Shown here one piece after another: positions 5,391 to 62,792 of a DNA stretch of 64,000 bases. Both the position numbers and the translations under genes were made by a program. Below the pieces are notes generated by a model. It was not told the DNA's origin. It searched no databases and saw only the letters and a list, made by a program, of their open reading frames with translations. The DNA lies in contig OY740814.1 in the NCBI GenBank assembly GCA_963514005.1, forward strand, positions 13,516,001-13,580,000. The letters are read 5' to 3'. The stretch's first letter is position 1. Each line of letters starts with the position of its first letter. This stretch comes from Raja brachyura (lineage: Eukaryota).

Positions 5391-5547
5391 CGAGCAGCCG
5401 ATCTTCACCAGCAAAGCTCATGTCTTCCAGATCGACCCCACCACCAAGAGGAACTGGCTGCCCTCCGGCAAATACCCGCTCACCATCTCATACTTCTACG
5501 ATGGATCGAGGAATAGTTATCGCATCATCAGCGTGGATGGAGCCAAG
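5391..5547 (+). CDS. HOMER2: HOMER2-like exon 2 (EVH1 N-half, [16 protein letters not shown]...SVDGAK)
   Basis: ttccag acceptor, gtcagg donor, 157 nt. Confidence 0.93.
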
Positions 5548-7014
5548 GTCAGGGGCAACAAGGGGCCATGGGTTGGCGGCACGGCAGGTGGCTGGACTGG
5601 GAAAAGGGTGGGAGAATGTGGAGAGATGGTGAATGGGGGCGAGGGTGGGAGAATCAGCAGGGCTGAGGTGCACAAACTGAGAGATGCTTTCACCTGCAGT
5701 TGATGTCTGAGTGGACAGGTTGGTAACAGCTGGAGGAAAGTGGCAGAGGTTGGGGTGGGTGGTTGCTGCGCTGGGGGCAGGCCCAATAGAAGTGGGGCCT
5801 GCAAGGGGGAGAAGGATTGGACCAGAGGGTAAAGGGAAAGACAGAGGAACAACAGGGGTCAAGGGACCTTGGGAGTGAGGTTAAGGGGCCATGGAGGGGT
5901 GGGACAAGGTGGGTAAAGTCCAGAGTGAGGGTGAGTGATCTGGAAGGATAATGAGAGTGGCCTTGGAGGTTGAGACAGAGGGTGGGTAATAGGCCGGGTC
6001 CAGGGCAGATGGGGAGGCTCCGTAGGATAAAAGAGGCCTGAGTTGTGGCATTGGAAGTAACAGCGGAGGTAGGATGACGGTGAGGCTGAGGACAGTGTTG
6101 AAGGAACCCGGGAGAGGCTTTTACCTTGAATGCAATTGAACTGGGACTGGATGGCTAGGAATAAGGTATCTTTTGCAGTGTTGCCATGGTTACATCATTT
6201 TGCATGCTGATATCTCTGAGCTAAAACAGGCTCTGAAGTGTGTGTGATTTTTGTGGGGGTGTCACAGACCATGGATATAATCTCAGAACAAACGTTTCAC
6301 ACCAAGCCTCTACTGCTTCTTGACTGCATTCCCTTTACTATAGGGCGGTTAGATTGTGAAAGTGGGCCTTTCAGCCCATCAAATCAATACCAGCCAGATC
6401 TTTTTCCACACCCCTGCAAATCCTCTCCTTCTTAAGATTAATTAGCTCCTTCTGGAACACCATATTTGGATCTACCTCTCTCGGGCAGATTCCAGTCTCC
6501 AACAAGTCAAGTTTATCTTATATGCAAAAATACAGTGAGGTTCAGGTAAATGAAAAGCGAGCTTGCAGCAGCATTACTGGCATATAGACTCGGACCACAC
6601 ACTAAACATAAATTAAATATCATTTACACAAGTTTTGCAAGACATTTCTGTAATAAACTCTTTTCAACCAATGTCTTGTTTTTTGCTTTTTTTTTTCAAA
6701 CTCTGTGGTTGTGCAAGATATTGTCCATAGTGTTCTGTTGCTGAGATAGGATTAGTGTTGTGCAAGTCAGTCCAAACAGAATGGTAGTAGGGAAGTAGCT
6801 GTTCCTGAATCTGGTGATGTGGAACTTTAGGCAACTTGCAGTGGCGTTGGTTTATTATTGCCATGTGTATTGAGATACAGTGGAATAACTTAGTTTTGCA
6901 TGCGATCTTGGCATATCATGCCATGCATGAGCACAAGTGGTAGAGCAGAAGTGAAAATAAATAAGAGTATAAAATATAAGGGGAGAGATTAGCCCAGTTG
7001 GTAGATCTGTTGGG

Positions 7015-9060
7015 AGTCATAGAGTGATACAGTGTGGAAACAGGCCCTTTAGCCCAACTTGCCCATACTGGCCAACATGTCCCAGCCACACTAGTTCCAC
7101 TGCCTGTGTTTGGTCCATATCCCCCCAAGCATGTCCTACCCATGTACCTTGTCAAACTGTTTCTTAAATGTTGGGATACTTCTAGCCTCAACTATCTCCG
7201 CTGGCAGCTTGTTCCATACACCCACCATTCTTTGTGTGAAACAGTTACCCCTCAGTTTCCTATATAATCCTTTTCCCTTAGCCTTAAACCTATGTCCTCT
7301 GGTCCTCCATTCACCTACTCTGGGCAAGAAACTCTGTATATCTGCATGAATTATTCCTCTCATGATTTTTTACACCTCTATAAGATCTTCATCCTCCTGC
7401 GCTCCAAGGAATAGAAATCAGGCTACTCGACCTCTCCCCATAGCTCAGTAGAGAGAATGATGGAGTGGTGAGCGGTCTTTGCTAATGTTATATGAGGCCA
7501 CATGAACTATACTATCCAAGTCATTAACATAGGACAGGGACAGTGGACAACACCAATCCCCGGGGCATACTGGTGGCCACAAGCCTCCGATCCGAAAAAC
7601 AATCCGCCACTACCATCTTCTGGCTCTTTCCAAAAAGGCAATGTTGTATTTAATTGGCTAGCTCACCCTGGATCCCATGTGATCTAACCTTTTAGACCAG
7701 CCTACCATGTGAGATCCTGTCAAAATGCTTGCTGTGGTTGCACTGCCCTCATCATGGAGTCATACAACACAAGCTAGTCCCATTTGGCCCACATCTCTCC
7801 AAATCTTTCCTATCTATGTACCTTCCAAATGTCTTTTAAATGTCGTGATTGTACCAGCCTCAACTCTCTCCTCTGACAGCTCATCCCATACACCCACCAC
7901 CCGCTGTCTGAATTGGAACAGGATCAATTATTTTGGTCACTGTTTAAAAATATAACCAAAGTCATGAGGTTTCTTACACAGAACACAAATGCCCTTAATC
8001 AGTCCTTGTTGTTCCAAACGCATAAAGATCCTGTCTCTCAGATTCCCCTCCAGTAACTTGCCCACCATGGAAGTAAGGCTCACCAGTCTGTAGCTCCCAG
8101 ACATTTCCTTGCAGCCCTTCTTAAATAAAGGGGCACTATTAGCCAATTTCCAGTCTTACAGGACTTCTTGTGGTTAAAGAAATATAAATATCTCTGCTAA
8201 GCCCCGACCTTCCCACAATGTTCCAGGTTGGTGCCCCAGGGATTCATCCACAATTATGTGCTTTAAGACTGCTAGCACCACCTTTTTTAATGTGGACAAT
8301 CACAATACACCTCCCTGAATTCCCTTCCTTCCACGACCTTCACAGCAGTAAATACTGATATCCATTTAAAACCTTGCCCATTTCCAGTGGCTCCAGAAAG
8401 ATGAGGGGAGAAAGATTTGAAAGAAAACCGAGGGGTCATTTCTTCACACAGATGATGGGTTGCATGTGGAATGAGCTGCCAGAACCTGTAGAGACAGGTA
8501 TGTTGTCGACATTTAAAAGACATTCAGATAGGTGCATGTCTGTATGACTCGCCGGCGAGGATGTATACTATGCACATATTTGTCCCCCATGCATTTTGCT
8601 TTTAATGTATTAAATTTTTTTGGGCCACTCCTCTGCCTTATCTGACAAATATGTACCCTCTTTGCTCACCTAATTTCACTCTTAAGCATATTCGTACATT
8701 CCCTATACTCAAGGGATTTGCATGATCACAGTTGCCCATATCTAGCAATGCACCTTTTTCCTCATTAGAGCTTCAATGTCTCTCATTAACCAAGGTTCTC
8801 AAATCCAGCCACTCTGACACTTGCATGCTGGCCCTCTTCCAGACTTGTTATAACCTTCTAATGACCTCCCAAAAAAAAACTTTATTCCAATCAAATGCCA
8901 TCAAAATTAGCTTCTCAAAAAATGTGTCAGATTGATGTGATGTGATTTTCCCCATCACAAAGCCATGCTGACTATCCCTAATCAGTCCCTGTCTTTCCAA
9001 ATGTATGTCAATCCTGTCAGTTAGAATTTTCTCCAATAATTTCACCACTAGCCTGTAGTG
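7015..9060 (-). mobile_element. Cluster of degenerate CR1 LINE fragments
   Basis: ORF remnants RTRGHRFK..FTQRMVGVWNKLP, PLFKKG..YRLVSLTSMVGKLLE, LIRDSQHGF. Confidence 0.8.
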
Positions 9061-11071
9061 ATCCAGCCCGCTGCCTTTAAATAAAGAAAATACTATCCTA
9101 GACTGGGTATAGATGGGATTTACTCATCTTGTCCTGTGGCCCATTAAGGAAGAATGACCATAATATGGCAGACTGGAAAGTGTAGAAGTTCAATCCAAAT
9201 CTAGGATCCTAAATATAAACAGACGGAAGTGGAGATGAATGAACTGGCTGTGATGGGGGTTGAGAAGTTCCTTAGAATGTAATGACAGTGGAAGAGCAAT
9301 AATTAATGTTTAAGGAATCAATGCAGGAACTGAAACAGTCATACATTCCTGACTGGTATTGAAAATATTTTTAAATAACAACCATGCTGAACAAAAGTAG
9401 TTAATGATAGTGTGTAAGGAGGAACTGCAGATGCTGGCTTAGTGTTGGATCTAATGAGGAGTGAGACAAGATTGCCGAACAAAGGAGAAAGTGAGCCTCG
9501 GCTGCAGTTAGATTTCAGCAAAGAAGGACGGAGAAATTGTTCCATAAAATAAAAATAGTGTACAAGAGTAGCAGGGAACATAAAAGTGGATGTATACGGT
9601 TTGAAAAAAATGAAGAACTCTTATTTGGAATAGGGGAGTGACAGAGCAATTAAACATATACAATAGTTCTAGCGCCATGGAAAAGGAAGTAACCAACCTT
9701 CCGGAGATGTTATTGAATAAGAATTTAATCAAGGTGATGAAATGGAGGAAATTGTATTACTAAGTGAATGAGTCTGAAAGCTGATAAACCCCCAGACCCT
9801 GATGATCTGCATCCCAGAAAACAGAAGGAGGCAGGGTGGAGGTGTGGGTGCAGAATTCTATAGATTCTGGAACAGTCCCCACTGTTTGATTATTGGCAAA
9901 TGTAATGGACCAATGTGGGAGGAAACCCCCGTAGACACAGGGAAACTATACATAGACAGCACCAAAGGTCAGAAATGAACTCGGCTCCTGCATTATGAGA
10001 GAGCGGCACTACTTGTTACCTGCTGCAGCTGTTGTAAGGGAAGGAAAACTGAAACTTGGTGTACAATGTAAGTGGTGTTAGATTGGGCAGCGTAGATGGA
10101 CAGACAGTCGGCTGACCTTGTTTACCAGACTCTAACGTAGGTATAGTAAGTAGTTAAAAAGGGAACAGATATGTCGGCCTTCACTGCAAGGTGACTTGAG
10201 TCCAGGAGCAAGGACATCTCACAAGTCAGTCAGTCAAACAAACTTTATTGTCATTTTGAAATACATCGATATATGCAGTTCCAAATGAAATTCCGTTGCA
10301 TTTGGCTCCCTGTGCAACACGATAATTAACAGAAGGATAAACATGGATAAAATGGATAAAAGGATAAATAGACAATGGTGGCAGCCCATTACATGGCATT
10401 CAGGAGTCTGATGGCTTGTGGGAAGAAGCTTGTTGCAGAACCTTGATGTTCTGCTCCTTATGCTACAATATCTTTTGCCCGAGGGCAGCAGAGTGAACAG
10501 ACCGTGATGGAGATCTCACCAAGACTCTGTACAATTGTATCTCTGGTATTGTACGCAGCTTTGGTTGGCTGAGACAGGAAATACCTGCCACAGAGAGATT
10601 GCCCAGAAGATTCTGACTCCTGGGATGGCAGCACTGTAGCTCTGAGCAGACTAGAACTGATTGGGGTTGTATTCACTGGAGTTAAGAATGAAGGGGAATC
10701 TGATTGAAAATTATAAAATCCATTAAAAACATTTTTAAAGATATTTTGACAGGTACATGGATAGAAATGGTTTAGAGGGATATAGTCCAAACGCGGCAGG
10801 TGGGACCAGCATAGATGGGGCATTTTGGTCAGCATGGGCAAGTTGTATTGAAGAGGTTTATTCCGTGCCGTATAACTCTATTCTGTGTGGCCATGACAGA
10901 GAGGGAGGGGGAGAGAAGATGGTCCCCCTGGTTGGGTGTCTAGAACAAGGGGTGTGTGGCGGGTTATGGGCCTGTGGGTGGATGGGGCATGAGATGAGGT
11001 GTGGAGACTGGGGGACTGGCGTTGTGAGAAGGATAAGCTATTGAATAAGAGCCGAGTGCGTGTTCCCGCAG

Positions 11072-11203
11072 GTGGTCGTGAACAGCACCGTCACCCCCAA
11101 CATGACCTTCAGCAAAACCTCACAGAAGTTCGGCCAGTGGGCAGATAGCAGAGCGAACACCGTCTTCGGTCTGGGCTTCCCCTCAGAGCAGCAACTGAGC
11201 AAG
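11072..11203 (+). CDS. HOMER2: HOMER2-like exon 3 ([44 protein letters not shown])
   Basis: cgcag/gtgggc boundaries, 132 nt, EVH1 core. Confidence 0.95.
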
Positions 11204-11381
11204 GTGGGCCCGGGGGAGGAGGGGTGCATGGGGGTGGGGGGAGAAGGATTATGAGTGGAGGGGAGGGTGGTGGAGGGAGGGAGGGAATCACAGAAGGTCG
11301 GTGCAATGGGCCTCTGATCCTTCAACTAACCTCGTGCTGGGTGTGGTGTCGCATCCCCCCTCCCCCTTCCCTGTGTTGCAG

Positions 11382-11474
11382 TTCGCCGAGAAGTTTGAGG
11401 AGGTGAAGGAGGCGGCGAGGTTGGCGAGGGACCGCTCACAGGAGGCGGCAGAGAGCTGCAGCACCCACTCCCAG
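11382..11474 (+). CDS. HOMER2: HOMER2-like exon 4 (FAEKFEEVKEAARLARDRSQE...HSQ)
   Basis: ttgcag/gtgcct boundaries, 93 nt. Confidence 0.92.
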
Positions 11475-11918
11475 GTGCCTGACAGAGCTGGGGGTGGGGG
11501 GGGGGGGGGGGGGGGAATGCGGGGCAGGTCGGGTCATGGGCCGAGGAGGGACGGCAATGAGCTCAGCAGCTCCGTGGGCCGGCATTTCTAGTTAAACCTC
11601 TGCCCTCGCTGGACAATCATCTGTTAACCTGTCGACCCGTGACTTTATCACTAGGTCCCGTCCCTCCACGAGCCGTCACTCTCTCTCTTGCTGCATCCAC
11701 CACCCAACCACTCCACACTGCCCTCTCTCCGTTTTGAATGATGGGCTCCAGTAGCCTCAGCGAGGAACTGGGTGTCTAGGATGCGCCGTGCATTACAGTC
11801 CCACCCATTCTGCAGCTTCACGGGCACATTAACACAACAACACAAGGTAACAAGACCATAAGACTGAAGGTTATGTTCCTGAGTTGTGGTTTCACCGGTT
11901 GTACACTGTTTATTTCAG

Positions 11919-12040
11919 GAGTCCAGTCATGAGGCCCCAACCTCACCACAAGCATCGAGTGTGAATGGAACCAACGATGAGAAAGGCGATAGCCCGTCTC
12001 CCATTGAATCCCTCCTGAGGAGTAACAACCACCGGATCAA
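11919..12040 (+). CDS. HOMER2: HOMER2-like exon 5 (ESSHEAPTSPQASSVNGTNDEK...RSNNHRI)
   Basis: tttcag/gtgagt boundaries, 122 nt; QASSVNGT.DEK motif as in HOMER2; not in the ORF track. Confidence 0.88.
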
Positions 12041-12299
12041 GTGAGTCTGCAGAGAGAGGGGGTGGGGGGGGGGGGGGGGGGCAGTGTAGAGGAGGGACAT
12101 CACTGTCCACCAGCCCCCATCTGGGACTGATGTTTGGCCTCACAACCACCTGCGTGACTTTGAGCCTCTACTCAAACTGAGCACCCTAGCAATTGCCAAC
12201 CACCCCGTCATTGTGGGCAGACGTCAGTGAGTGGATCGGGTTCGCAATCTGGAACCACACGATGGACATTAACTGTCACCACTATTGGGGTGGGGGGCA

Positions 12300-13200
12300 T
12301 AGCGTTGTACAGCACAGAAACGGGCCTGTCGGCACAACTCATTCATCCTGACCAGGGTTACCCATCTAAGTTTGTCCTGTTTGTCAGAGTTTGGCCCACA
12401 CCCCTCTCGACCATTTCCATCTACATATATACCTGTCAAAATATCTTGTAAATTTTTGTTATTCTACCTGCCCCAACTACCTCCTCTGGCAGCTTATTCC
12501 AAATAAACATCACCGTATGTGTGGAAAAAGTTGCCCCTCAAGTTCATATTAAATCATTCCCCTCTCATCATAAAACAAGGCCCTCCGGTACTTGATTCCC
12601 ATACTCTGTGGGGAAAAAAGACTGCATTCACCCTATCTATTCCCCTCAATTTTACACACCTTCAATAAGTTCATCCCTCCCTCTCCTGTGCTCTAAGGAA
12701 TACATTTCTAGCCTGCCCTACCATTTCCCATAGCTCATACCTCTAATCCCGGCTATATTCTGTAAATCTTCATGTACATTGCGTTTGGCATCTTTCCCAT
12801 AGTAGGCTGACCAAAACTTAAAACATGTATCTTTTGCCCTCTTTTGTCCCACTGATTTCCTTCTTAACTATATGCTTCTCGATACTTCTCCAGGGATACA
12901 CTTAATCCCCCATGTGTATATCTAACCTTTGCCTCCCATTTCTTGATTAGTGCCTCAATTTCTCTCATCATCCTGGGCTCCTTACAATTACCTGCCCTGC
13001 CTTTCACTGTATCCGGAACATGCATACCCTGGACTCTGGCTATTATATTTTTAAAAGCACCCTACCTTCTGGACATTCTTTTGCCAGCAAACAATCAATC
13101 AACTTGTGTGCGTTCCTGTCTGATACCATCAACGTTGGCCTTGGCCTAAATTAGAACTTTTCCATTACTATTTTAAAATAAATTGAACTGTGCTCTGGCA
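12300..13200 (-). mobile_element. Degenerate CR1 LINE fragments
   Basis: CR1 3'-end sequence (cggcacaactcattcatcctgacc...) and ORF2 remnants. Confidence 0.6.
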
Positions 13201-13492
13201 CTGACAGTTCAGTCACCTGCCCTGCCTTATTTCGTAAGAACACGTCGTGATGGTGAGGGGGGTGGCTGGAGAAGTGGTGGGGGTGAGATGGGATGGGGCT
13301 GATGAAGGGAGGATGGTTAGTTTGGGACGTGAGCAGTGGGGGAATGATTTTGTGACATTTGGGGGAAGGGGTGAGGTTGGTGGAATTGGGAGAGTGGAAG
13401 GAGGTGAGGTCAAGAGGGAGGAAGTGGGGAGGATAGGTGAGGTCACACAGGGTGGGACGTGGGGTACTAGCGGGACCGGGGTCCGTACGCAT

Positions 13493-13625
13493 AGGGCCTG
13501 TCCCACTTGCGTGTCCTTGGCACGCAAATTACGCGACCTCGTCGTCGCGTTGAGGCGCACGGGCATCGTATGGCCGCACGAGGCCGGTCCCACTGAGAAG
13601 CGCGGAGGGGTATGTAGTTGTGCGA
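13493..13625. mobile_element. Truncated GC-rich PIF/Harbinger-like MITE end
   Basis: Begins agggcctgtcccactt with internal CG-rich hairpins; no matching right TIR seen. Confidence 0.4.
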
Positions 13626-13693
13626 TGGTGAGAAGGGTCGACGTGCGGAGGGGAGGGGTCGCAGAAACCCTGATGGTCTCCCCTCACCCCCAG

Positions 13694-13844
13694 CCCGGTG
13701 AAGAAGTGGGAGCAGGAGCTGCGGACTCTGGCCGAGAGCAACGCGCGGCTGGGCGCGGCGCTGCACGACTCCGCCGGCACCGCCGAGCACTGGAGGAGCC
13801 GCCTGGTGCACTGCAAGGAGGAGGGCGAGCGGCTGCGGGAGAAG
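13694..13844 (+). CDS. HOMER2: HOMER2-like exon 6 (PVKKWEQELRTLAESNARL...ERLREK)
   Basis: ccccag/gtgagg boundaries, 151 nt, phase matches exon 5. Confidence 0.9.
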
Positions 13845-14391
13845 GTGAGGTCCCGGCCCGGGGAAGGCGAGGTCGTGGGAGGCGCGGGATTCCTGGTCGG
13901 GGTGGGGGTCCCGGACATGGGGGTGTGTGTCAAGGTAGCTTTGCTCCTCTGCTCTTCTCCTGGTGGTACTGCGGTGGGCGGGTAGCAACATAGCCCTCCC
14001 CCCCCCAAAGCTGCCAGGGTGGAAGGGAGAAGGCAGGAGAATGACAATAGACAATAGGTGCAGGAGTAGGCCATTCGGCCCTTCGAGCCCAATCAGTACC
14101 CCGCTCCTGCCTTCTCCCCATATCCCCTGACTCCGCTATTTTTAAGAGCCCTATGTAGCTCTCTCTTGAAAACATCCAGAGAACCGGCCTCCACCGCCCT
14201 CTGAGGCAGAGTATTCCACAGAATGGGGTAAGGAGGGAGATATTAGCCATGCTTGAATGGGTCGGAAGGCCTAATTCTGATTCGTTGACGTGACCTGATG
14301 AGCCAGTCCCCGCTCACCCTCTCCCCTGCTACTGATGCGGGGAAGCCGCTAGCCGGGTGCGCTCTGACCTGCGCGACACCTCCTCCCGCAG

Positions 14392-14502
14392 ATCGTGGAA
14401 CTGGAAGCTCAGAGCGTCGACATCGGCAAGGAGAGGGAGCAGAATTCCCGGCTCAACCAGACTGCGCGGCTGCTGGAGGCGCAGATCAGCGAGAAGGAGC
14501 AG
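14392..14502 (+). CDS. HOMER2: HOMER2-like exon 7 (IVELEAQSVDIGKEREQNSRL...SEKEQ)
   Basis: ccgcag/gttggc boundaries, 111 nt, coiled coil. Confidence 0.88.
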
Positions 14503-14619
14503 GTTGGCACCACCCAGAAATTGTCCCCTCCCTTCCCGTCCCTCGCCCTAACTTCAACCCCGTAACCAGTTGTGGAGCCTGTGACCGAGGGCCAGGGGGA
14601 ACTGCAATCAGGAATTCGA

Positions 14620-14841
14620 AGATAGACACAACAAGCTGGAGTAACTCAGCGGGACAGGCAGCATCTCCGGAGTGAAGGAATGGGGGACGTTTCGTGTCGA
14701 GACCCTTCTTCAGAACCAGAAGTCTCGACCCGAAACGTCACCCATTCCTTCACTCCGGAGATGCTGCCTGTCCCGCGGAGTTACTCCAGCTTTTTGTGTC
14801 TATCTTCGGTATAAACCAGCATCTGTAGTTCCTTTCATTGC
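14620..14841. mobile_element. Palindromic Penelope-derived insertion with 13-bp TSD
   Basis: TSD atcaggaattcga at 14607-14619 and 14842-14854; inverted arms around tcgagacccttcttcag. Confidence 0.8.
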
Positions 14842-15752
14842 ATCAGGAATTCGAGCGGAGAGAGGGTCCGGTCAGGGATGGGCGGGCGGCGATGGCCCGC
14901 CCGTGGACAACTTCCGTTATTTTGGACTCTCGTAGTGGGTGGAGAAGGTCTACCGAGACTCCCAGGTCCTGGATTTGGACAAAGGCTCCTCACCGCAGGA
15001 GACTCCCGCCCCAGTCCCGGGTGGAGGAAGCAACTGGAGCCTAGATTGAGGGCTAGGGATCAGCGTTGTTCATCAGGAGCCCTCCCCCAGCTCCCTGAAG
15101 CGCTATCCTGGTGTTGCATTCTGGAATCGTTGCTGCTCCCACTCTCCAATGCGCGCTGATGCCTTTCCTACAGCACTTTCCCAGGAGTGCAGGCCCCATC
15201 CTCCTCTCCCCCCCCCCCTCCCTCTTCTCGTCCCACCAAACACAGGGGGGCAAGCAACCCTTACGGGTACAGCAGCGATTCACTCGCCCTTCCAGCGTAG
15301 TAGGAGTCTGAACTTTCAGACCTCGTCACTTTAATTCACCCTCCCACTGCCTCCCAAACAATGCCCAACGTGAGACGAGAGCAGCGGCTCGGATACCTTG
15401 GCCTATTTCAGGGTAATGATTCCATATCTGCTGTTCCCTCCTCCGATCCCCTTCCTCCTTTTTCACCCATATCCATACGCTCGTTGCCTCCCCCATCTCC
15501 CGCCCATTGAGCTTTCCTTTGTTCTGATGAGAGGTCATTGATCTCAAACGAGGGGGGTGATAGAAGCAGGGAAACTCAATGTTGACGTGTCTCGATGGCC
15601 ACTTGAATCATCAAAGCAGAGAAGGCTACCGACCAAATGTGGACAGATGGTGGATGCTGTATGGTCGGTATGGAAATAGTGGGCTGAATGGCCTGTTTCT
15701 GTGCTGGGTTTCATTGCGCGAAAATCCCAGTAACCTCTGTTCTTTCCCACAG

Positions 15753-15833
15753 GAGCTGGAGAGACTGAGAACAGAGGTGCAGGTTATCCCAGGCCTGCTG
15801 GAGCAGTGTGAGGGGTTACAGCACCAGCTGCAG
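15753..15833 (+). CDS. HOMER2: HOMER2-like exon 8 (ELERLRTEVQVIPGLLEQCEGLQHQLQ)
   Basis: ccacag/gtaagc boundaries, 81 nt. Confidence 0.9.
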
Positions 15834-16014
15834 GTAAGCAAGGGCTGGTGTCTGCTAGATGTGAGGTGGATGGCAGAGGTGGTGAACTGGGGAATCCAGG
15901 AGTCTTGCTCGCCCCAACCCTGCCAGCTCCCTGGTACCTGGACTGACCAATCCGTCATTTATCCGATCAGCTGCCGAAACACCCACTTATTTGTTTACTA
16001 GTTGGGACAATTCA

Positions 16015-50325: not shown

Positions 50326-50499
50326 GTGAGCATCTCAAAGCCACTCCTGGAGTCACATCCATAGAATGAACCAGTTCCAGCAATTTAATCGGTGCAAACA
50401 AACAGTCCTGGCCATTCCCATTGTATTTTTGTCATTGTAAACCAAGGTACTGTCAAAACCATGTGGAGACTGGAATCTAAGATAATGTTTCTGCGACAG

Positions 50500-52596: not shown

Positions 52597-53165
52597 CATA
52601 GAGTTATACCATGTGGAAACAGGCCCTTCGGATCCAACTTGCCCACACAGGCCAACATGCCCCAGCTACACTAGTCTCACCTGCCTGCGCTTGGTCCATA
52701 TTCCTCCAAACTGTCCAATCCATGTACCTGTCCGACTGTTTCTTAAACGTTGGGATAGTCCCAGCCTCAACTACCTCCTCTGGCAGCATGTTCCATACAC
52801 CCACCACCCTTTGTGTGAAAAAATTACCCCTCAGATTCCTATTAAATCTTTTCCCCTGCACCTGAACCTATGTCCTCTGGTCCTCGATTCCCCTACTCTG
52901 GGGCAAGAGATTCTTTGCATCTACCTGATCTATTCCTCTCATGATTTTCTACACCTCTATAAGATTACCCCTCATCCTCCTGCATTTCAAGGAATCGAAA
53001 CCCAGCCTACTCAACCTCTCGCAATAGCTCAAACTCTCTAGTCCAGGCAACATCCTCGTAAATCTTCACTGAACCCTTTCAAGCTTGACTATATCTTTCC
53101 TATAACATGGTGCCCAGAACTGAACACAACTCTAAATGTGGTCTCACCAATGTCTTATACAACTC
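52597..53165 (-). mobile_element. CR1 LINE 3' fragment, same subfamily as about 7015-7450
   Basis: RFNRNLRGNFFTQRVVGVWNMLPEEVVEAGTI. Confidence 0.88.
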
Positions 53166-53606
53166 GCCAACGTCTTATACATACTCGTGAGGAATTTGGA
53201 AATATCAGGCATGTTAGGAGTAGGAAGTCATTTTATTTCTGTTGATATTCACACAGTAGTAACTTAAAACTTTCTTCCACAACTTCAGTTCAGGCTTATC
53301 CATCCTCCTATGCAGCAACAACCAGTACAGGGATTGAGTCCCCCTTGTCTAAAACAGCCCAATATCAGCAACTGTGAGGTACGACTGTTGTCTCTGAGGT
53401 GACTGTGTGGTGCTTTTTAGCGAGAGGTTCGAGCAGGGGGGTTGTGCAAGCAGGGTGGATGTGAGCAGTGTGGGTGTAAGTGGGAGTGGGGAATGAGCTC
53501 CATGGATGGGAATTAAGTGGGTGTGATTTCATGGGCATAAGATAAGTGTGAACTGTCAGCCGCTGCAGCCTTGTACATGATATTTCTTACTCTTTTAATT
53601 CTGCAG

Positions 53607-53859
53607 GAGTAAATTTGAATTCCTTCACAAAGGGCTGACTCCAGACTTGAGAATCACTATCACACCAACCAGAATTGGAATTCTCCTGGACTACGACACA
53701 GGAAAACTTTCCTTCTTCAATGTCGACATCTGTCAGCTCCTCTTCACCTTTTCACAGCAATTTCAGAATCTGGTCAATCCCTGTTTTGCTTTGGAAAGTT
53801 ATGGCATTTTAAAAGTCAGTCATAATATTCCCTTCCCCGAGTTTACAAAACTACTGTGA
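53607..53859 (+). CDS. FSD2: FSD2 last coding exon (SPRY C-half)
   Basis: ctgcag acceptor; [16 protein letters not shown]...PCFALE; TGA ends at 53859. Confidence 0.94.
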
Positions 53860-54533
53860 CATAATCCCGTTTCAGTCGCAGGTGCAATGTTGAGTTTTAG
53901 TTGAAAGGAAAGCCTTTAAAAATGCAAGTCTTTTCAATTTTTGCAACTGAGCCTCTTCCTTGTACAGAGGCTGAGATCCGAGTCACCACCAGAGGTGCTC
54001 ATTCACCACAAGAACCCAGTGAACTGCACTTCCCAGCTGTTGAAAATATATTGCACTCCTGTCCACCTCCTCTCCGTCCCTAATATTTTCTTTACTGTTA
54101 CTGCTCAGCTTGCCCAACTGCTCAGCAGCTCCCATCACAATGTTAACACAGAGGATTGGGTAACCAACAATGGCAATTGTCACAATTTAAATCCTGCTCC
54201 AGCAAATGTGTTGGGTGTATGGCTGACCACCCAGTCAGTTTATGAACTACAACAATCACAACTCACTATTGCAGCTACAGCAAAGTCTCTGAGTAAAAGC
54301 AGGTTTACTTCTGCTGAGTGTCATGTAATGATAAGGATGTACAAATTCAGCCCTAGTTATTCACAGCAGTATCCAATTGCAATGGACAGAACTATTCCAA
54401 TCATTTCCTCACTATCTGTGATTCCTGGTAATACTTAGCAATGAACCAAATCCGATTTATTAAACTGGGGCAAGTGTTCACATTTGGCCCTTTAGAAAGG
54501 GAATGTTGCTGATATTTCAGAGATCAGTCATAT

Positions 54534-56464
54534 AGGTAGGCTTCACAGCAACCGGGTCATGACCCATGACCCGTACTGTTGCTAGCTACTCCAACTGGAG
54601 TACACGCGATTAACTGCAAGTAAGTAGCAATGTTACAAAATTTTGAGATTTTAAAAATCAAGTCTGCAATTTATCCCATCAGATAAAGCATAACAAGAAG
54701 TTTAATTTGACACCTAATTTACTTTCATATCTTCAGTATTAAGAAAGTTATGGCCATTTTCATGCTCGGAAATGAGTATCTTGCTTCCCATTGCCTTTCA
54801 ATTGACTTAACTCAAAAGCTGTGATCTGGAAAAATTAAAAGCCCATAACTTTATTAAAAATTAAGAGAACTCAATGAAATTTTCAGTCATTATAGATTGA
54901 AGCATTCTGAAACAAATATTAAACAATCTTACTTGGATTACCTGAAATTAAAGTATATAATTAGTTAGTTATCTAATTGTAGCTAATTACAAAATTCAAT
55001 GAGTAGATCTAAACATCTATCAATTTCTTAAGAAAAGATAAACTTTTTTTTAATTGCCTAAGTGTCCAAATAACATTCACACAATAATCCACAATATAAC
55101 ATAATTTTTAAATCTCATTTTCATGAATTTCTGGGCCAAATGGAAGGAATTTAGTGTTCTATGCCTGTAAATAAATGGCCATTTAAATCAACTAGCGAGT
55201 GGGTTTTAGTGGAATGCGGTGGATTGGAACGTTGCGGTTAGCGGTGAAGTCGGGGGGGAAAATACTGGGGGTTCATACATTTTTTGGGGAACCCATTTCG
55301 CAACATTAAAATAGTATTTATGCCTCCCAAAAAACCAACTTTTAATAAAAAAATAAAGTATTTACCTTTTTTTCTCCCCTACGGAAAATGCTTCCGGTGG
55401 TCTGCGGTCACGGCTTTTAAAGGTGATTTTTAAATTACTCTAGTTAACAAATAACTTAGAGTAATTTAAAAATACCTTAATGGATGAAATGTCGGAGCGA
55501 TTTTTCTTCCGCAATTAAATCGCCCGACATTCATCGATTATCCTGGTCTGGTGAAAATCGGCACTTTAAGCCCGCCCCCCTCTGCAAGGCGCTAAAGTCG
55601 CGCACACGGGGAGCGGCAGAACTGCAGCGCCGCTAAAGGTAAGTTTTGTAACATACCTAAAGTAAGTACTTACCATTGTTTCCAGCGTAGCGGGCCCGTT
55701 AAAACCCGCCAAAATTGTCATTTTTTGTGCTGTAAATAATTATGGAAATTGGGATAAGTGTGAGAGACATTTAGCCTACTTCTGAATTCCAAAAGTGAGG
55801 AGAAATTACGGTAGATAGAAGCGAGAGCTGAAGGGACAACAACAGCTAAAGTGATTGGCGGACATTGGCTCACTGCATTTCATCAACTAAGGCATTATTT
55901 GTGTTTTTTCTTGATTCCTTTAGCATCTAAAAGGTTTCAGAAGTGATAAATCTGGCTGTACAATTTTAAAATCGCCCATGGTTCTCGTGGGTTTTTACAT
56001 ACAAAAGGAAAACGCCTCTGAAGCAAAATTTACAGCCAGATTTATCACTTCTGAGACTTTTTAGATAGCAAAGGAATCAAGAAAAACCACAAATATTGCC
56101 TCACTGTTGATGAAATGCAGTGAGCAAACGCGATAATTCCCAATATTTTCAATTCCGATATCTGCACAGCCAATGTTCACCAAGCACTTTAGCGGTTGTT
56201 GTTCCTTCAGCTCTCGCTTCTCTTTACCTTCATTTCGCTTCACTTTTGGAATTCTGAAGTTGGGTACATGTCTCTCACGCTTACCCCGACTTCCACAATT
56301 TTTTACAGCGCAAAAATTCAACATTTTGGCGTTTTTTAACAGGTAGGAAAGTACCCGTTTCTTGCATTAATAACATATACCGGAAGTTACGGATGTCCTC
56401 CAGATGGATTGAGCGGCTCCGTGCGTCAGCCCTATGACCCAGTGACCTTATGTGCAAACCCCCT
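54534..56464. mobile_element. Non-autonomous fold-back DNA transposon with two inverted THAP-domain remnants
   Basis: ORF 56061-56324(-) MLNFCAVKNC..FRIPK..RVCSLHF is a THAP C2CH finger; decayed inverted copy at about 55698-55966; AGG...CCT ends with related subterminal sequence. Confidence 0.75.
54625..55659. mobile_element. Nested non-autonomous TIR element (hAT-like) with 7-bp TSD
   Basis: TIRs tagcaatgttacaaaatt and (rc) taggtatgttacaaaact; TSD aagtaag at 54618-54624 and 55660-55666. Confidence 0.75.
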
Positions 56465-57809
56465 ACAGCTGAAACATTAACTGTTTCTCACACCCCAGAG
56501 GGTCCCTGACCTGCTGAGTGTTATTAATGGTTGATATCTGGAACACCGTGCCAGGAAGTGGTGAAATCAGATATGACCACTACGTTTAAGTGGCATTTAG
56601 ACAGGACCTTCAACAGGCAAGCCTGAGAGGGATATGAACTGGGATTGGTGTAGATGGGTAAAAACATCAACATGGAGTGAACAGAAAGGGCCATTGTGCT
56701 GTATAACTGATTCAATGACCTCCTGTCAGCATAAACTCAAAGGTTGGGATGTTGACTGATGATCTCACAATGGTAATTTCTATTTGCAGCTCCTTAGCAA
56801 ATGGAATAGGAATACTTTATTATTACATGTGACTCGGCACAGTGAGATTCTTTGCCTGCGTACACAATGTGTACAAATAGCAGCCACCTACGGCGCTGAC
56901 AAAGTTACAAAGCACGCCGGCTCCCACTTTTGTCCCCTCGACCTCTCTCATGGCGGTTCCCCCATGCAGGGTCTTCCATTGTTCTTCCCCCTCCTCAGGG
57001 TGATCCTCAACGCTCTCATCGCTGCTAATGCGAATCTTCACTACCGCCAAGGTCCCATAGTCGCGAGGCCTCACCGCTGTCGACGCCCCACTTCACGCCT
57101 CCGTGGTACCGACCAGGGTCCCAGCCACTTCACCCGACCAGGGCTTCTACCCACGAGGCCCCAGATTAAGGCCTCCGGCCGCGTTCCCAGTCCACAGCAG
57201 CGGCCTATCGGGAAGCCTTAAATGAAACATAGAACATAGTGGCAGGAGGAGGTAATTTGGCCCTACGAGCATGCACCACCATTCATTGTGGTCATGGCTG
57301 ATCATCCACAATCAGTAACCCGTGCCTGCCTTCTCCCTATATCCCTTGATTCCACTAGCCCTGAACAGAGCAAAAATAGAGAGCAAAAGACAAAGACAAG
57401 AAAAAGAATGAGCATACTAACAAGAAACTACACACAAAAAAATACTGCAGCGTATACTTAAGTCTTCAAAGTCAAGAGCAGGAAAATTATATTCAATAAA
57501 GAAAAAGTGGAGGCATTAAACAAATGTCGCCCTTTGCTAGAGAAGTCCAGAAACTGATAGGGAGCTGGGTGCACACTGGAGCCACAACAACCAGATTGTG
57601 ATCTATTGCTTGGAAATTTGGCACTGCCCGTCTCCTTTTCGACAAGACTTTATAAATATGGACTTTTAGATCAGTATTTTAACGTTTCTGATCATGCAGT
57701 AGAACATTTTCTGGAAGTAACAACTGACGTTACAGTGAGAGTTTCAGATGACAAGGCACAAAGTACCTCGGACTGAGGAACCAGGGCTCAGCTCTGCAAT
57801 TTTGAGTGA

Positions 57810-58280
57810 GTCATATAGTATGGGAACAGGCAACTCACCAATGCCAACCGAGATACCACCCTATGCTAGTACTATTTGCCTGCACTTGGCTCATGTCCGC
57901 CTTAGCATGTCCAATCTATGAACCTATCCAAATGTTTTCTAAATGTTGTAATTCTACCCATCTCTACCGCTTTTTCCGGCATCTCATTCCACATACCCTC
58001 ACACTCCATGCAATAAGCTTGCACTGTGGGCCCATTTAAATCTTTACCCTCTCACCTTCCATTTAAGTTCTCCAGTCCGAGACTCCCAATCCTGGGACAA
58101 AGTATGACCGTGCCAAGATTTCTAAAACTCTAGCAGGTCATCCCCACAGCCTCCTTCACTCAAAGGAAAATAGTCCCAGCACTATCCAATCTCTCTTTAT
58201 ATCTCAAACCTTGCAGTCCCAGCAAAGTTGTTGTGAATCTATTCTGCAGTGTCTCTAGCTTAATCACATCCTTCCTACAG
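57810..58280 (-). mobile_element. Old CR1 LINE 3' fragment
   Basis: Decayed CR1 3'-end sequence similar to other copies in the window. Confidence 0.6.
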
Positions 58281-59901
58281 TCATTGTTTTGCCCACTGTC
58301 CCATTTAATCTAAATTCCAATGTATCCTCACACAACTTTCCCTTTACCTTCTCTCTTGAGAACGTTTTGCAGGTGCTCAGAGACATCTTAGATCCTGGCA
58401 AACAAAGCAGAAGCACACCATCCTGGAGTCTCATATGTGGCTACAGTGAGAATACTGAACGGAGGAATCAGATCCGACATGGCAATAAAATCACTTCCCT
58501 GAAAAAGGGTCCCGACCCAAAACACCGCCAGCGTCTGGTACAACGGCAGCTAGCTGTATCTTTAGGACGTTCACAGTTTAAAGCTGATAATGCCTTGATG
58601 ACATATTAAACACAAACTTTTGTTCTTGCACTTTGAGCGATTATGAAGGAGGACATTGCATTGGTAAAAACAAAAACAAGGGCAGGAAATGCCGGTAAAT
58701 ATTTCATTACCTAAAAAGTAAAAAAATACCTAAAGGACACAATATAAATTGTTTACTCCTCTCATCTAGACTAAAATGCATTAATAAATTGTGAATAAGG
58801 CAAAACTGTGAGACGTTGCTGCCAGGGAAAGGTGCTGGCACATAACTCAGTGTGAAAGACATGACTTTAGAGGCCTGGGTGCTGTGGCTCATTTATAACA
58901 AGTTAAGAGGAAAAAGGTCATTGAGTGATACAGTCTAACTTCAACCCAACTTGCCCACACCAGCCAACATGTTCCAGCTACACTAGTCTCACTGGCCCCC
59001 GTTTGGTCCATATCCCTCTAAACCTGTTCATGTACCAGCCTAACTGTTTCTTAAATGTTGGGATAGTCGCTGCCTCAACTATTTCCAAAGGTAACCGTAT
59101 CAATGCTTGGAAAATTTGGAGTTTCAAGCACAATACAGATACTAACTCCCAGAAACAAACGGCTAAGCACAGATCGTCCTACACCGTGCCATGGAAAGGC
59201 TGCTGCTTTGATATTCTGCAGATCCATTGGGGAAAATACAAGGTCTGTACATCAACACATCAAAATCATGTCAATTTATGTTATTTGATAGAATGCTTTG
59301 GCTCTTTTAGTTATATAAATCCATAGAAAATATTAAACATCTAACAAAATAAATAAAGATTATCTAAATCATAATAGTTAATGATCACATTGGAAAAGTT
59401 TCTTTAAAACATTTATCCCAAGGTTCATATATATATACTTTTTACAAACTATAAACTGTTATCAGTAGTGCTCAGAAATGAGGGAGTGCTTCTTCCTACG
59501 ATCCGAAAGACAAGCAGGATACGGTTCCCTACACATCTAGGTCTCCGACAACATTTTGCATTCCTCAGTGGCAGTCTTGTTTAGTGCAGGTGATCAGACA
59601 ACCTTTGACCCAATGGGTTATGACAAGACCAGAGGTAGCCAACACTGGAAGGAGGTGAGACAGTCAGACTGAGCTTTGAAAATTGTGCAGCATATTTCTG
59701 CAGCAGTTGGTTTGATTTCTTCATTCTTGCTTGACAACTTGACACTGGCGCAGGATGAATGCTAATCCACAGTAAGAATCACAGCTGAGTAGGAGTGTGC
59801 ATCCCTGCTATCCCAGTCTCTCTAGGAGGATCGTTCTGGACAAGTCAGAGCAGAATGACAACTCATGGCCTAGTCACTGCTGACAGGAGGATGGAAAATA
59901 G

Positions 59902-59981
59902 TCAGTTATTTTCACTCAGTTTCTTCCAGTATTCAAAGTTCTTCTCTAGGTGATTTATCAGGTTAGGCAGGTCAGCAAACT
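59902..59981 (-). CDS. PDE8A: PDE8A-like last coding exon (EFADLPNLINHLEKNFEYWKKLSENN*)
   Basis: ctgcag acceptor, phase matches the previous exon; PDE8A vs PDE8B assigned by neighbourhood. Confidence 0.85.
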
Positions 59982-60823
59982 CTGCAGGCAGAGAGAAACA
60001 AGGTCAGGCAGTGGTGGCCAGGACAAAGCTATGTACAATAAACAGCTCAGTGTTAACCCAAGATGAAGAGGCTGCAGAGAGTACACTGTCACTTGGAGAC
60101 ATCCCAAAGCAGGCACTAAAAGTTCTCGGTGATCACTAATAAATGGAAGATTGAATAAAGAGGCGCAGCCTCAGCCAAACAGTGGAGTGTGGGGTGGGAT
60201 GAAGATTCTTTCATCCCAGGATGACATTTTCAGGTCCTACCCATCTGGCAGAAACACATTCAACGAGCAACAAAGCACTAGGGAAAAGAGTAAAATGAAA
60301 TTGGTGATTGGATGAGTTGTGGACATGGAGTGGTGGTGAGGCCAGCATCAGCTGGCTTGGCCTGTTGCTCATCTCAAGTTGATAGCTATGTGATGTGTCA
60401 TGTGCTGTAACAGCAGGTAGTGGCTAGAAGAGCCTGTGACACAAGTCTAGTTACTGCTTGACTGCACACATGCACCTACAGGCTGGAAATAGATTCATTG
60501 AACACCAATCTTTGTGCAGTGCAAGGCACAGTATACTCTCACGCCATTGTTTGACTCCACCATACACTCAATGGCTAAATGCATCAGTTGGTGAGAAGTT
60601 GTCATGAAGATGAGGTTTTTATCCCATCTTGTCTAGGTGGTCATCTCATAAAGGAATTCTTGCAACTAACAGTGTTTTGAAAGAGGATGGAAGTCAAAGG
60701 AAACAAAGGGATGAAATAAGAACAAAAGGTTTGCAAAGGCTTCAAATTGAATAATGGTCAAATACAGCTTGCAAATTATTACATAATTAGTAAAGTCTGT
60801 TCTGAAAATGTGCAGATACTTAC

Positions 60824-60953
60824 CATCCCAGGAACTAAGCATATCTGTTATAAAATAATCAATGAAAGAGACCTGACTCTTGGGGATGTTGCAGTTCTTT
60901 CTGTCAAACAGGGGCATTATCACAGGGAGGCCTTTTTCTTTCTCGTCGTCAGT
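60824..60953 (-). CDS. PDE8A: PDE8A-like penultimate exon ([38 protein letters not shown])
   Basis: tcacag/gtaagt boundaries, 130 nt; invariant purine-binding Gln retained. Confidence 0.87.
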
Positions 60954-62624
60954 CTGTGAAAGAGAGACCAGACCATTGAACAAAGGATTAACTAATGTAT
61001 AATGTCTAGTGTGTGAAAGAATACTATGGAGTATGCACAGCATTAATTAGTTCACCAATTGGTTGGAATGTGCCCTGGACCACATGTTTTCTATATAGGA
61101 GTTTGGTACTTGGAGCAAGGAAGTTGGAGGAACAAAAATGAAACATGGCCATGTGAATATACTATCTAGCATACCTGAGGTGGCATGTGATAAAGGATTG
61201 CACTGGACTTGTGTATGAAGTCTATATATCCTCTCAAGGCAAAACAAGGCAACACCTGCAAGTGAGATTAGACAATCTGGTTTGTAAAGTCATCCTTTGC
61301 TAGTTACAGGATTTTTACTTCTATTTCCAGTAATTAGTTGGAATAAATATGTCTGGTCATTCGATGAGGCAGCTGCTACCCCAACAGGAATTTTGTTTTC
61401 TTGACAGGAATCTTGTTTTCAAACAAAATAGATCTGAGGGGCTTTCTCTCAACTTGTTCCCCACAGGCACAGGAATGGAAAATAAGAACAGCTGAGTCCA
61501 CAAAATTCCCACATTTCTACAGAGCATCATGCATTGTGCAATTTGTCAGATCGGTTTTGAATCATCTCCTTGCTGTCCAGGTCAAAGGCCTTCTTAATTT
61601 TCATTTTTTAAAGGACCAGAAAAAAGCAAATGAAACAATGAAAAACGTTTGACCTGCAATCTTTTAAAATCACTTACTTCAAGGTGCCTCAAGATATTGT
61701 TCATTTTGACAGGAAAAATAAAATAATGTATTCTAAATGGGCCAGGGTCTGCAGAATTCTGGGTTGCAGAGGGATCTAGGGGTCTTAGACCAACACTTGT
61801 AAAATTCAAGAAGGTAAAAATCACAAATTAGGAAATCTAACAATTGTTATGGATCATTGTATGGTAAATTAAATACAAAGTAGAGAGGTTATGCCTCATT
61901 ATAAAGGACACTGGAGAGTCTACATCTGTAATCTGGATTTTCTTGCATTGGACATAGTTTGGAGAAGGTTTACTTGAGTGATGATTGGAATAAATGGATT
62001 GGAAGGCTAATCTTGCATCCAATGGATCTTAGAAGAGTGACAGGCAACTTGGTTGAAACATGCAAGTTCTGATGGGTACCAACAGACAGTGTTCAAAGCA
62101 CATTTCTTCTTGTGGGAGAATCAAAACTCGTCGTCACTGCTTAAAGCATTGCGATGGACACAAAGTCTTTGGATCTCTCCTCATAGGACGAAAGCAAAGT
62201 CTCTGAATATTATAGTAGAAGATGATAGATTCTTCATAAACAACAGGATGCAAGATCACTAGAGCAGGGAACACAGAATTGAAGTTACGCTAGGATCAGC
62301 CAATATCTTGCTGAGCAGTTGAGTGGATTTGAAGGTTAGCACCTGATTCTCCTCCAATACATGTGATTGCTTTGCAGAGGTAAAAGACTTGGCCAACAGT
62401 AGGTGATGTCAAACAGCATCAGATTACAGGACTCTTGAAGAGGCTGAATCGTGGGATGCAGGTGTGCCATTTGTGGAGGGGAAGGAGTGTTCAGGAAGAG
62501 AAGTTTTAAAAGGAACCAGACATTATTTTATGATTAAAATTTGTACTTGCCAAAACGGATCCTACTATTCTCAGTTCACTACAAAAAACAGGGAAAGTAT
62601 GAAATTAAAATTTCACTCCCACAC

Positions 62625-62792
62625 CTGATCAGCGTACTCCTTTGAAATACGATGTGCCCACTCAATATACAGCTTCAGCGGTCTGAAGGGATTGGAGACA
62701 TCAGCACATTTAATTAACATACGCATGATCAGAGTTCGGCTCTCAAGAGGGTTGATGGCAGATCTGGATGTACCAACATTGCTGGTGCCAAG
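62625..62792 (-). CDS. PDE8A: PDE8A-like catalytic-domain exon (RMLIKCADVSNP..IEWA.RIS.EY..Q)
   Basis: ttgcag/gtgtgg boundaries, 168 nt; PDE8 signature; the gene continues beyond the window end. Confidence 0.85.

What the first reader, a model, noticed from the sequence alone, without database searches (positions are those of the whole stretch)
5391..62792. HOMER2-WHAMM-FSD2-PDE8A block lacks AP3B2/CPEB1/RPS17 and has divergent proteins: rearranged orthologous locus or a retained extra 2R ohnolog cluster
Seen: order HOMER(+), WHAMM(-), FSD2(+), PDE8(-), with only about 6 kb of mostly repeat DNA between the FSD2 stop (53859) and the PDE8 stop (59902). Recalled: mouse has the same relative orientations but Rps17, Cpeb1 and Ap3b2 lie between Pde8a and Fsd2, and the block is paralogous to HOMER1/JMY/CMYA5/AP3B1/PDE8B. 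Seen: the normally near-invariant EVH1 is unusually changed ([31 protein letters not shown]), and so is the PDE8 catalytic region. Inference: either lineage-specific loss or translocation of three genes with fast evolution, or a sister copy from the second vertebrate genome duplication (a fourth Homer) kept in chondrichthyans.
Basis: partly seen in the sequence, partly recalled or inferred. Interest (0 to 1): 0.7.

Follow-up and report, generated by a model that had tools for sequence, protein, structure and literature searches.

The report
Ordinary skate HOMER2 block, chromosome split
These are a skate's ordinary single copies of HOMER2, WHAMM, FSD2 and PDE8A, not an extra set left from an ancient genome doubling; the three 'missing' neighbours sit intact on another chromosome, likely because sharks and rays reshuffled and then split the ancestral chromosome, and HOMER2 has evolved unusually fast in rays and skates.

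Summary
In detail: HOMER(+), WHAMM(-), FSD2(+), PDE8(-), with 6,042 bp of largely repeated DNA between the FSD2 and PDE8 stops, and divergent HOMER and PDE8 proteins. The 'fourth Homer' reading fails. Genome searches find 3 HOMER, 2 WHAMM/JMY and 2 PDE8 loci, one close FSD2 locus, and no second conserved locus. The window's Homer nests inside chondrichthyan HOMER2 (100/100), and AU tests reject separate-copy trees. AP3B2, CPEB1 and RPS17 are not lost: they lie together on contig C41. C36 (the window) and C41 share out chicken-chr10-type genes, while C49 holds the chr25-type ohnologs and no Homer. HOMER2/WHAMM and CPEB1 lie on different-length chromosomes in 15 of 15 elasmobranchs, but on same-length ones in a chimaera and two birds. 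This fits the published elasmobranch fission of the chr10 equivalent after gene-order reshuffling (Wu 2024). Small new points: HOMER2 evolved about 3-5 times faster on the skate line than in sharks while keeping its ligand-binding residues, and a second SNX27 sits beside AP3B2. Chromosome duplication with reciprocal loss is unlikely (0 of 20 families on both chromosomes) but not excluded.

The parts
5391..16728 (+). HOMER2, coding exons 2-9 (5391-5547, 11072-11203, 11382-11474, 11919-12040, 13694-13844, 14392-14502, 15753-15833, 16540-16728); candidate ATG exon about 2.6 kb before the window
   Evidence: AG/GT junctions and open frame; WH1 Pfam hits; tree; exon-1 candidate predicted only
21879..32375 (-). 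WHAMM, 10 exons, 747 aa: WHAMM-JMY_N, JMY coiled coil, polyproline, WH2, acidic end with tryptophan
   Evidence: exon 1 is 93% identical to a skate protein that NCBI names WHAMM
35506..53859 (+). FSD2 (minispryn): B-box-like and coiled-coil region, two FN3 repeats, SPRY; one micro-exon unresolved (candidate 43337-43353)
   Evidence: contigs of run X16 (RNA status is a guess) join exon 51171-51347 to the last exon, as a spliced transcript would (table 8)
53860..59901 (.). FSD2-PDE8A spacer, the place where AP3B2-CPEB1-RPS17 lie in mouse (order recalled); repeat-rich, with a THAP-domain fragment at 56061-56366(-) inside a high-copy repeat; no gene remnants
59902..62792 (-). PDE8A, last three coding exons (62625-62792, 60824-60953, 59902-59981); the gene continues to about C36:13.65 Mb
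   Evidence: best PDB match is human PDE8A; metal-binding motifs intact just outside the window; PDE8 N-terminal Pfam hit

Best explanation
The block holds the skate's single HOMER2 and WHAMM genes and what are most likely its true FSD2 and PDE8A; AP3B2, CPEB1 and RPS17 lie together on another chromosome (C41), likely because they were moved within the ancestral chicken-chr10-type chromosome, which then likely split in two in the shark-and-ray ancestor. Shown: copy numbers, locations, HOMER and WHAMM trees, and the 15-species separation. Inferred: the ancestral order had AP3B between WHAMM/JMY and PDE8, because the skate's paralogous region on C3 reads CMYA5-like, HOMER1(+), JMY(-), SCAMP1, AP3B1(+), PDE8B(-) and the human FSD2 cluster contains AP3B2. 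The three-gene cassette (over 300 kb with the neighbouring SNX27 paralog) was moved by a transposition or by two inversions reusing one breakpoint, which left FSD2 tail to tail with PDE8A. The fission then put the pieces on separate chromosomes. The proteins are predicted to do their usual jobs: HOMER2 as an EVH1/coiled-coil scaffold binding PPxxF motifs, WHAMM as an Arp2/3 activator, FSD2 as minispryn and PDE8A as a cAMP phosphodiesterase. HOMER2's divergence is later acceleration, mostly on the batoid stem and again in skates, outside the ligand groove.
For: Copies in G000: HOMER on C36, C32 and C3 only (all 22 WH1 candidates scored); WHAMM/JMY on C36 and C3; PDE8 on C36 and C3; FSD2 once, next best hit 39% on C3; AP3B on C3 and C41, CPEB1 and RPS17 on C41 at 13.49-13.79 Mb, all + strand. 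Homer tree: the window gene sits within skates, batoids, elasmobranchs and chondrichthyans inside HOMER2 (100/100); the C3 copy groups with HOMER1 and the C32 copy with HOMER3. AU tests reject batoid+HOMER3 (p 9.4e-5), batoid gene outside HOMER2 (p 2.3e-4) and elasmobranch genes apart from chimaera+bony HOMER2 (p 1.3e-5). The chondrichthyan HOMER2 stem (0.12) is far shorter than the HOMER1/HOMER3 stems (0.24+0.27). Flanks on C36: CEP152, INTS14, HACD3-like (recalled motif), BTB gene, DUF167, RAM on one side; GATM, a decarboxylase and an acyl-CoA synthetase on the other. Quartet markers: tropomyosin C1/C32/C41/C49, IQGAP C3/C41/C49, RGM C3/C32/C36/C5, SMAD pair on C36. Contig lengths differ between HOMER2/WHAMM and CPEB1 in 15 of 15 elasmobranchs and match in Callorhinchus (10,676,269) and 2 of 2 birds. 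Wu et al. 2024 (PMC11406177, section 9 read) report two shark chromosomes homologous to chicken chr10 by fission after reshuffling.
Against: Searches in G000 give lower bounds, and some expected paralogs were missed (SCAMP3/4, three PIAS genes, one of furin/PCSK6, TM6SF1), so a very divergent extra copy could hide. No tree was built for PDE8A or FSD2. PDE8A rests on position, copy number and CADVSNP shared with human PDE8A where the C3 copy has CADVANP. The cassette left cleanly, with both flanks rejoined in ancestral order and strand, which inversions alone do only with breakpoint reuse. That C36 and C41 are the pair described by Wu et al. is inferred from gene content. Human and chicken gene positions are recalled, except the 240-kb FSD2 cluster (PMC5524797).
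Confidence: 0.88

Rival explanations
1. C36 and C41 come from a duplication of the chr10-type chromosome (or a large segment) in the elasmobranch stem, followed by reciprocal gene loss. HOMER2-WHAMM-FSD2 and PDE8A survived on one copy and AP3B2-CPEB1-RPS17 on the other.
For: The flanks of the missing cassette are joined in ancestral order and strand. SLC28 and an ALPK3-type alpha-kinase, recalled neighbours of PDE8A in mammals, lie about 1 Mb downstream of RPS17 on C41, giving an alternating C36/C41 pattern.
Against: 0 of 20 families with a hit on C36 or C41 hit both (10 on each). These are lower bounds and linked genes are not independent. There are no remnants of either set in the other region (C41 only partly sampled, CPEB1 stretch not fetched). 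Unrelated genes surround the cassette: SIN3A and MAN2C1 upstream; CK1-gamma, KTI12 and a MALT1-like gene between RPS17 and the alpha-kinase. Published whole-genome synteny calls it a fission (PMC11406177).
Confidence: 0.06
2. The cassette was translocated between the two chromosomes after they had already separated, early in elasmobranchs.
For: It gives the same end state in all 15 elasmobranchs and explains the clean excision by a single cut-and-paste step.
Against: The cassette landed on the one chromosome, among roughly 50, that derives from the same ancestor, which is expected if the move came before the fission and improbable otherwise.
Confidence: 0.04
3. The block is a retained sister copy from the second vertebrate genome duplication (a fourth Homer) on the chr25-type chromosome, and canonical HOMER2 was lost or lies elsewhere.
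For: Divergent proteins. A 2R sister would also branch next to HOMER2 in a tree. This genome does retain extra paralogs nearby (second SNX27).
Against: No other HOMER2/WHAMM/PDE8A was found. The chr25-type slot is held by C49 (tropomyosin, IQGAP, SNX27), which has no WH1, JMY or PDE8 hit. The chimaera ortholog shares a scaffold length with CPEB1. The divergence maps to the batoid and skate branches, not to a deep stem. RAM, DUF167 and a BTB gene flank it as they flank human HOMER2 (recalled).
Confidence: 0.01
4. The FSD2-PDE8A junction is an assembly error.
For: The spacer is repeat-rich, and no single public contig spans it.
Against: There are no Ns in the window. Unique parts of the spacer are tiled at single-copy depth in 4 runs coded as 4 organisms, and one contig bridges 53175-56880. 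The chromosome separation recurs in 15 independent assemblies.
Confidence: 0.01

Closest known systems
FSD2 cluster of human chr15q25 (HOMER2, WHAMM, FSD2, AP3B2), paralogous to the CMYA5 cluster (HOMER1, JMY, AP3B1); Benson et al. 2017, PMC5524797 (passages read)
   Same: HOMER2, WHAMM and FSD2 are adjacent with the same strand pattern (strands recalled). RAMAC, C15orf40 and BTBD1 types lie upstream. The paralogous cluster is present on skate C3.
   Different: AP3B2 (with CPEB1 and RPS17) is on another chromosome; PDE8A directly follows FSD2.
Elasmobranch fission of the chicken-chr10 homolog (white-spotted bamboo shark chr39 + chr42); Wu et al. 2024, PMC11406177 (passages and section 9 read)
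   Same: Two small chromosomes share out the chr10-type genes in mixed order; reshuffling before fission is their model.
   Different: They work at chromosome scale in a shark; the passages read do not name this gene block. The match to C36/C41 is inferred from gene content.
RefSeq-named homer protein homolog 2 of skates (Amblyraja, Leucoraja, Rhinoraja)
   Same: 96% identity to Amblyraja HOMER2 over 344 columns, with the same EVH1 changes and the same 346-aa length as the common batoid isoform.
   Different: Species-level differences only.

Membership tests
HOMER2 ortholog | Nests inside the HOMER2 clade following the species tree | tested here: met
   100/100 support; three alternative clades rejected by AU tests
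HOMER2 ortholog | Homer ligand-groove residues F14, W24, T70, F74, Q76, V85, G89 (PMC13502648; bioRxiv 2024.01.23.576863) | tested here: met
   All 7 of 7 present; PPxxF binding itself not assayed
HOMER2 ortholog | Neighbours RAMAC, C15orf40, BTBD1, WHAMM, FSD2 (first three recalled) | tested here: met
Retained fourth 2R Homer (chr25-type ohnolog) | A separate canonical HOMER2 locus exists in the genome | tested here: not met
   3 Homer loci only; counts are lower bounds
Retained fourth 2R Homer (chr25-type ohnolog) | Lies on the chr25-type chromosome | tested here: not met
   C49 holds that slot; C36 carries SMAD pair, RGM, PIAS, endophilin, GATM
Retained fourth 2R Homer (chr25-type ohnolog) | Split from HOMER2 as deep as HOMER1 versus HOMER3 | tested here: not met
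   Stem 0.12 with the bony-fish side collapsed, versus 0.24+0.27
WHAMM ortholog | WHAMM-JMY_N, JMY, WH2 domains; closer to WHAMM than JMY; JMY separate | tested here: met
   every informative name among the 114 hits is WHAMM, none is JMY; some hits are unnamed or hypothetical; tree had no JMY outgroup
PDE8A ortholog | Phylogenetic placement with PDE8A versus PDE8B | not tested
   No shark or bony-vertebrate PDE8 proteins were in hand; indirect support from position, copy number and CADVSNP
PDE8A ortholog | Intact catalytic motifs (YHNxxH, HD.DH, CAD, invariant Q) with PAS and PDE8 N-terminus | tested here: met
FSD2 ortholog | Coiled coil-FN3-FN3-SPRY with short N-terminal exon; CMYA5 separate | tested here: met
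   no tree built; micro-exon predicted only
Elasmobranch chr10 fission products | Separated in sharks and rays, joined in chimaera and bony vertebrates | tested here: met
Chromosome duplication with reciprocal loss | Retained duplicate pairs and collinear interleaving between C36 and C41 | tested here: inconclusive
   0 of 20 families on both; local order mixed; sample small

The most novel reading that the evidence does not exclude
The two elasmobranch chromosomes that match chicken chr10 are not fission products but the two halves of an unrecognised chromosome-scale duplication in the shark-and-ray ancestor, resolved by near-complete reciprocal loss. The clean FSD2-PDE8A junction opposite AP3B2-CPEB1-RPS17 would be its footprint.
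Probability: 0.05. Interest if true: 0.8.

Novelty: already known. Interest (0 to 1): 0.2.

Why it matters
Modestly. It gives a gene-level marker of a chromosome fission already described, dated here to after the chimaera split and before the shark-ray split. It shows that the otherwise conserved HOMER2-WHAMM-FSD2-AP3B2 cluster can be broken. It also warns that divergent batoid HOMER2 and PDE8A can pass for hidden ohnologs. The batoid speed-up of a normally very conserved synaptic and muscle scaffold (with an 8-residue shortening before the coiled coil) could interest people who work on ray nervous, sensory or muscle biology, but no functional change is shown. Had it been a fourth Homer, or were it a hidden chromosome duplication, it would matter much more.

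Tried and rejected
Second conserved locus: searched with Homer exon 3, WH1, JMY, a PDE8 exon and the FSD2 SPRY exon; none found. Remnants of AP3B2, CPEB1, RPS17 and SNX27 in 364 kb of C36, and of the four window genes in the fetched C41 stretches: nothing below E 0.1. TM6SF1 as a marker: the EBP family gave no hit on C36 or C41, uninformative. The PINIT search found only 1 PIAS gene, which shows limited sensitivity. C41 14.0-14.77 Mb was sampled as 20 of about 77 ten-kb stretches only. The Pristis row is an isoform lacking an exon and was not used in identity ranges. Order of RefSeq accession numbers as a proxy for gene order in chimaera was considered and dropped, because known neighbours differ by about 100 (Rhinoraja HOMER2 and WHAMM). 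Sequencing runs: no RNA holder listed. Literature: searches for bird or fish gene order around PDE8A returned 0 papers. Listings (titles and abstract starts only; 20 of 167, 8 of 8, 10 of 135, 12 of 765) showed no paper on chondrichthyan HOMER2, this block or a second SNX27. These are weak negatives. Passages of PMC10115646, PMC10620051 and PMC12952989 were read; none of the passages shown named this block. No supplements or figures were seen; Wu Fig. 1F and Benson Fig. S2B bear on the claims. No structure or complex prediction was run, since none would decide orthology.
Full report
Setting. The window is G000:C36:13,516,001-13,580,000. Its proteins are closest to skates: WHAMM exon 1 is 93% identical to Rhinoraja, 78-83% to other rays, 59-65% to sharks and 37-54% to bony vertebrates.

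Observation. HOMER has 8 coding exons (5391-16728) with canonical junctions and an open frame. WHAMM has 10 exons and 747 aa. FSD2 has 11 clear exons plus a predicted 17-nt micro-exon. PDE8 ends at 59902 and starts near C36:13.65 Mb. The 6,042 bp between the FSD2 and PDE8 stops are largely repeats and hold no trace of AP3B2, CPEB1 or RPS17. Unique parts of the spacer are covered at single-copy depth in four public runs coded as four organisms, though no contig spans all of it. Contigs of run X16, whose RNA status is a guess, join FSD2 exons as a spliced transcript would.

Copy number. Searches of G000 found Homer on C36, C32 and C3, WHAMM/JMY on C36 and C3, PDE8 on C36 and C3, and FSD2 once with a 39% relative on C3. 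These match the human counts (recalled). The tool gives lower bounds and missed some expected paralogs in other families. The three missing genes are present and adjacent on C41: AP3B at 13.49-13.57 Mb, CPEB1 at 13.61-13.67 Mb and RPS17 at 13.79 Mb, all on the + strand. A degraded RPS17 copy lies on C35.

Phylogeny. In a 54-row tree (IQ-TREE, LG+G4, 354 columns) the window gene joins Amblyraja and Leucoraja, then Rhinoraja, other rays, sharks and Callorhinchus, inside a 100/100 HOMER2 clade with bony fish, amphibian, reptile and mammal sequences. The C3 copy groups with HOMER1 and the C32 copy with HOMER3 (names for 10 of the representative rows; the other representatives are unnamed). On a 27-row subset without cyclostomes and short isoforms, AU tests rejected three alternatives, with p from 1.3e-5 to 2.3e-4. 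A 2R sister of HOMER2 would also branch beside it, so depth matters. The chondrichthyan stem is 0.12 and the bony-vertebrate side collapses, against 0.24+0.27 for HOMER1 versus HOMER3. WHAMM follows the species tree (no JMY outgroup). PDE8 and FSD2 were not treed.

Chromosome identity. C36 around the block reads CEP152, INTS14, HACD3-like (recalled motif), BTBD1-type, DUF167, RAM, HOMER2, WHAMM, FSD2, PDE8A, GATM, a PLP decarboxylase (HDC-like, recalled) and an acyl-CoA synthetase (SLC27A2-like, recalled). Further along C36 lie an endophilin, a SMAD pair, PIAS and RGM. C41 reads SIN3A, MAN2C1, SNX27-like, AP3B2, CPEB1, RPS17, an unnamed coiled-coil gene, CK1-gamma, KTI12, MALT1-like, an alpha-kinase and SLC28; tropomyosin, a convertase, two SCAMPs and IQGAP lie elsewhere on it. 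Nearly all are human chr15 / chicken chr10 types (positions recalled; KTI12, MALT1-like and SNX27-like are exceptions). Tropomyosin gives a full quartet on C1, C32, C41 and C49, and IQGAP a trio on C3, C41 and C49. So C49, not C36, is the chr25-type sister, and it shows no Homer, JMY or PDE8 hit. The fourth RGM is on C5, an exception.

Other species. The homology tables give the length of the contig carrying each protein. HOMER2 or WHAMM and CPEB1 lie on contigs of different length in all 15 elasmobranchs for which both were listed: Pristis, Hemitrygon, Mobula hypostoma, Narcine, Leucoraja, Heptranchias, Heterodontus, Carcharodon, Mustelus, Scyliorhinus, Stegostoma, Rhincodon, Hemiscyllium and two Chiloscyllium (some names were cut and were matched by accession series). 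They lie on contigs of the same length in Callorhinchus (10,676,269) and in two birds (50,663,958; 22,311,445). Wu et al. 2024 (PMC11406177, section 9 read) report that shark chr39 and chr42 are both homologous to chicken chr10 and attribute this to fission after intrachromosomal reshuffling. Yamaguchi et al. 2023 (PMC10620051, passages) also list elasmobranch fission products.

Mechanism. Shown: the split and its distribution. Inferred: the direction and the steps. The skate's own paralogous region on C3 has HOMER1(+) 12.58, JMY(-) 12.7, SCAMP1 13.34, AP3B1(+) 13.6 and PDE8B(-) 14.1 Mb, and the human FSD2 cluster includes AP3B2 (PMC5524797, passages). AP3B between WHAMM/JMY and PDE8 is therefore likely ancestral, and its absence here derived. 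The most economical path is relocation within the unsplit chromosome, then fission. Duplication with reciprocal loss would explain the clean junction and the presence of SLC28 and the alpha-kinase 1 Mb from RPS17. But none of 20 families hit both chromosomes, no remnants were found, and unrelated genes intervene; I give it about 0.06.

Divergence. From the shark-ray node, the HOMER2 path to the window is about 0.32 changes per site against 0.065-0.094 for five sharks, with 0.20 on the batoid stem. For WHAMM the figures are 0.32 against 0.23, and for Leucoraja CPEB1 0.05 against 0.015-0.05, so the effect is strongest in HOMER2. EVH1 changes accumulate stepwise from sharks to rays to skates and cluster at residues 9-10 and 19-34. 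That region includes a loop described as involved in partner binding, but F14, W24, T70, F74, Q76, V85 and G89 are intact (PMC13502648 and bioRxiv 2024.01.23.576863, passages). The common batoid HOMER2 form is 346 aa against 352-354 in most shark entries. PDE8A is also divergent (31/43 versus 41/43 for PDE8B against human PDE8A in one exon), with catalytic motifs intact; when this happened was not dated.

Verdict. An orthologous locus whose odd neighbourhood reflects a known elasmobranch chromosome fission. There is no fourth Homer. Interest 0.2.

Noticed in passing
G000:C41:13.36-13.48 Mb (L071-L077, L035, L059) and G000:C49:6.50 Mb (L060): Two SNX27 genes (PDZ, PX, FERM-like exons on C41). 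Tetrapods have one, on the chr25-type region (recalled). The C41 copy, head to head with AP3B2, is likely a retained 2R ohnolog, and its PDZ exon scores slightly higher against mammalian SNX27 than the C49 copy does.
   Followed up: partly
G000:C41:13.81-13.84 Mb (L021-L024): Unnamed multi-exon coiled-coil gene just downstream of RPS17; the exon tested is single copy, with no Pfam hit above cut-off.
   Followed up: partly
G000:C41:14.56 Mb (L141:7374-7700, -): Weak MALT1 Ig-like hit about 0.2 Mb from an ALPK3-type alpha-kinase; it recalls the MALT1-ALPK2 pair (recalled) and may be a retained paracaspase ohnolog.
   Followed up: no
G000:C36:13,500,685-13,502,454 (-): Two RAM-family matches to the same part of the profile 1.6 kb apart, which may be a duplicated RAMAC exon.
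   Followed up: no
G000:C5:64.65 Mb: The fourth RGM gene (hemojuvelin-like by recall) is on C5 rather than on the chr25-type C49.
   Followed up: no
G000:C133:42602-43096 (-): A full-length MH2 match on a small unplaced contig, beside the ones on C36 and C1: a third inhibitory-SMAD-like gene or a haplotig.
   Followed up: no
G000:C3:12,582,734-12,582,862 (L003): The HOMER1 EVH1 exon reads QWPD where all Homers aligned read QWAD, at position 78 beside the ligand groove: a real substitution or a sequencing error.
   Followed up: no
window 56061-56366 (-); 28094-28957 and 40739-41605 (+): THAP-domain fragment within a high-copy repeat in the FSD2-PDE8A spacer; long ORFs that look like LINE reverse-transcriptase pieces (recalled) inside WHAMM and FSD2 introns.
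   Followed up: no
window 26589-26667: WHAMM has a 79-bp intron, very short for this genome.
   Followed up: no
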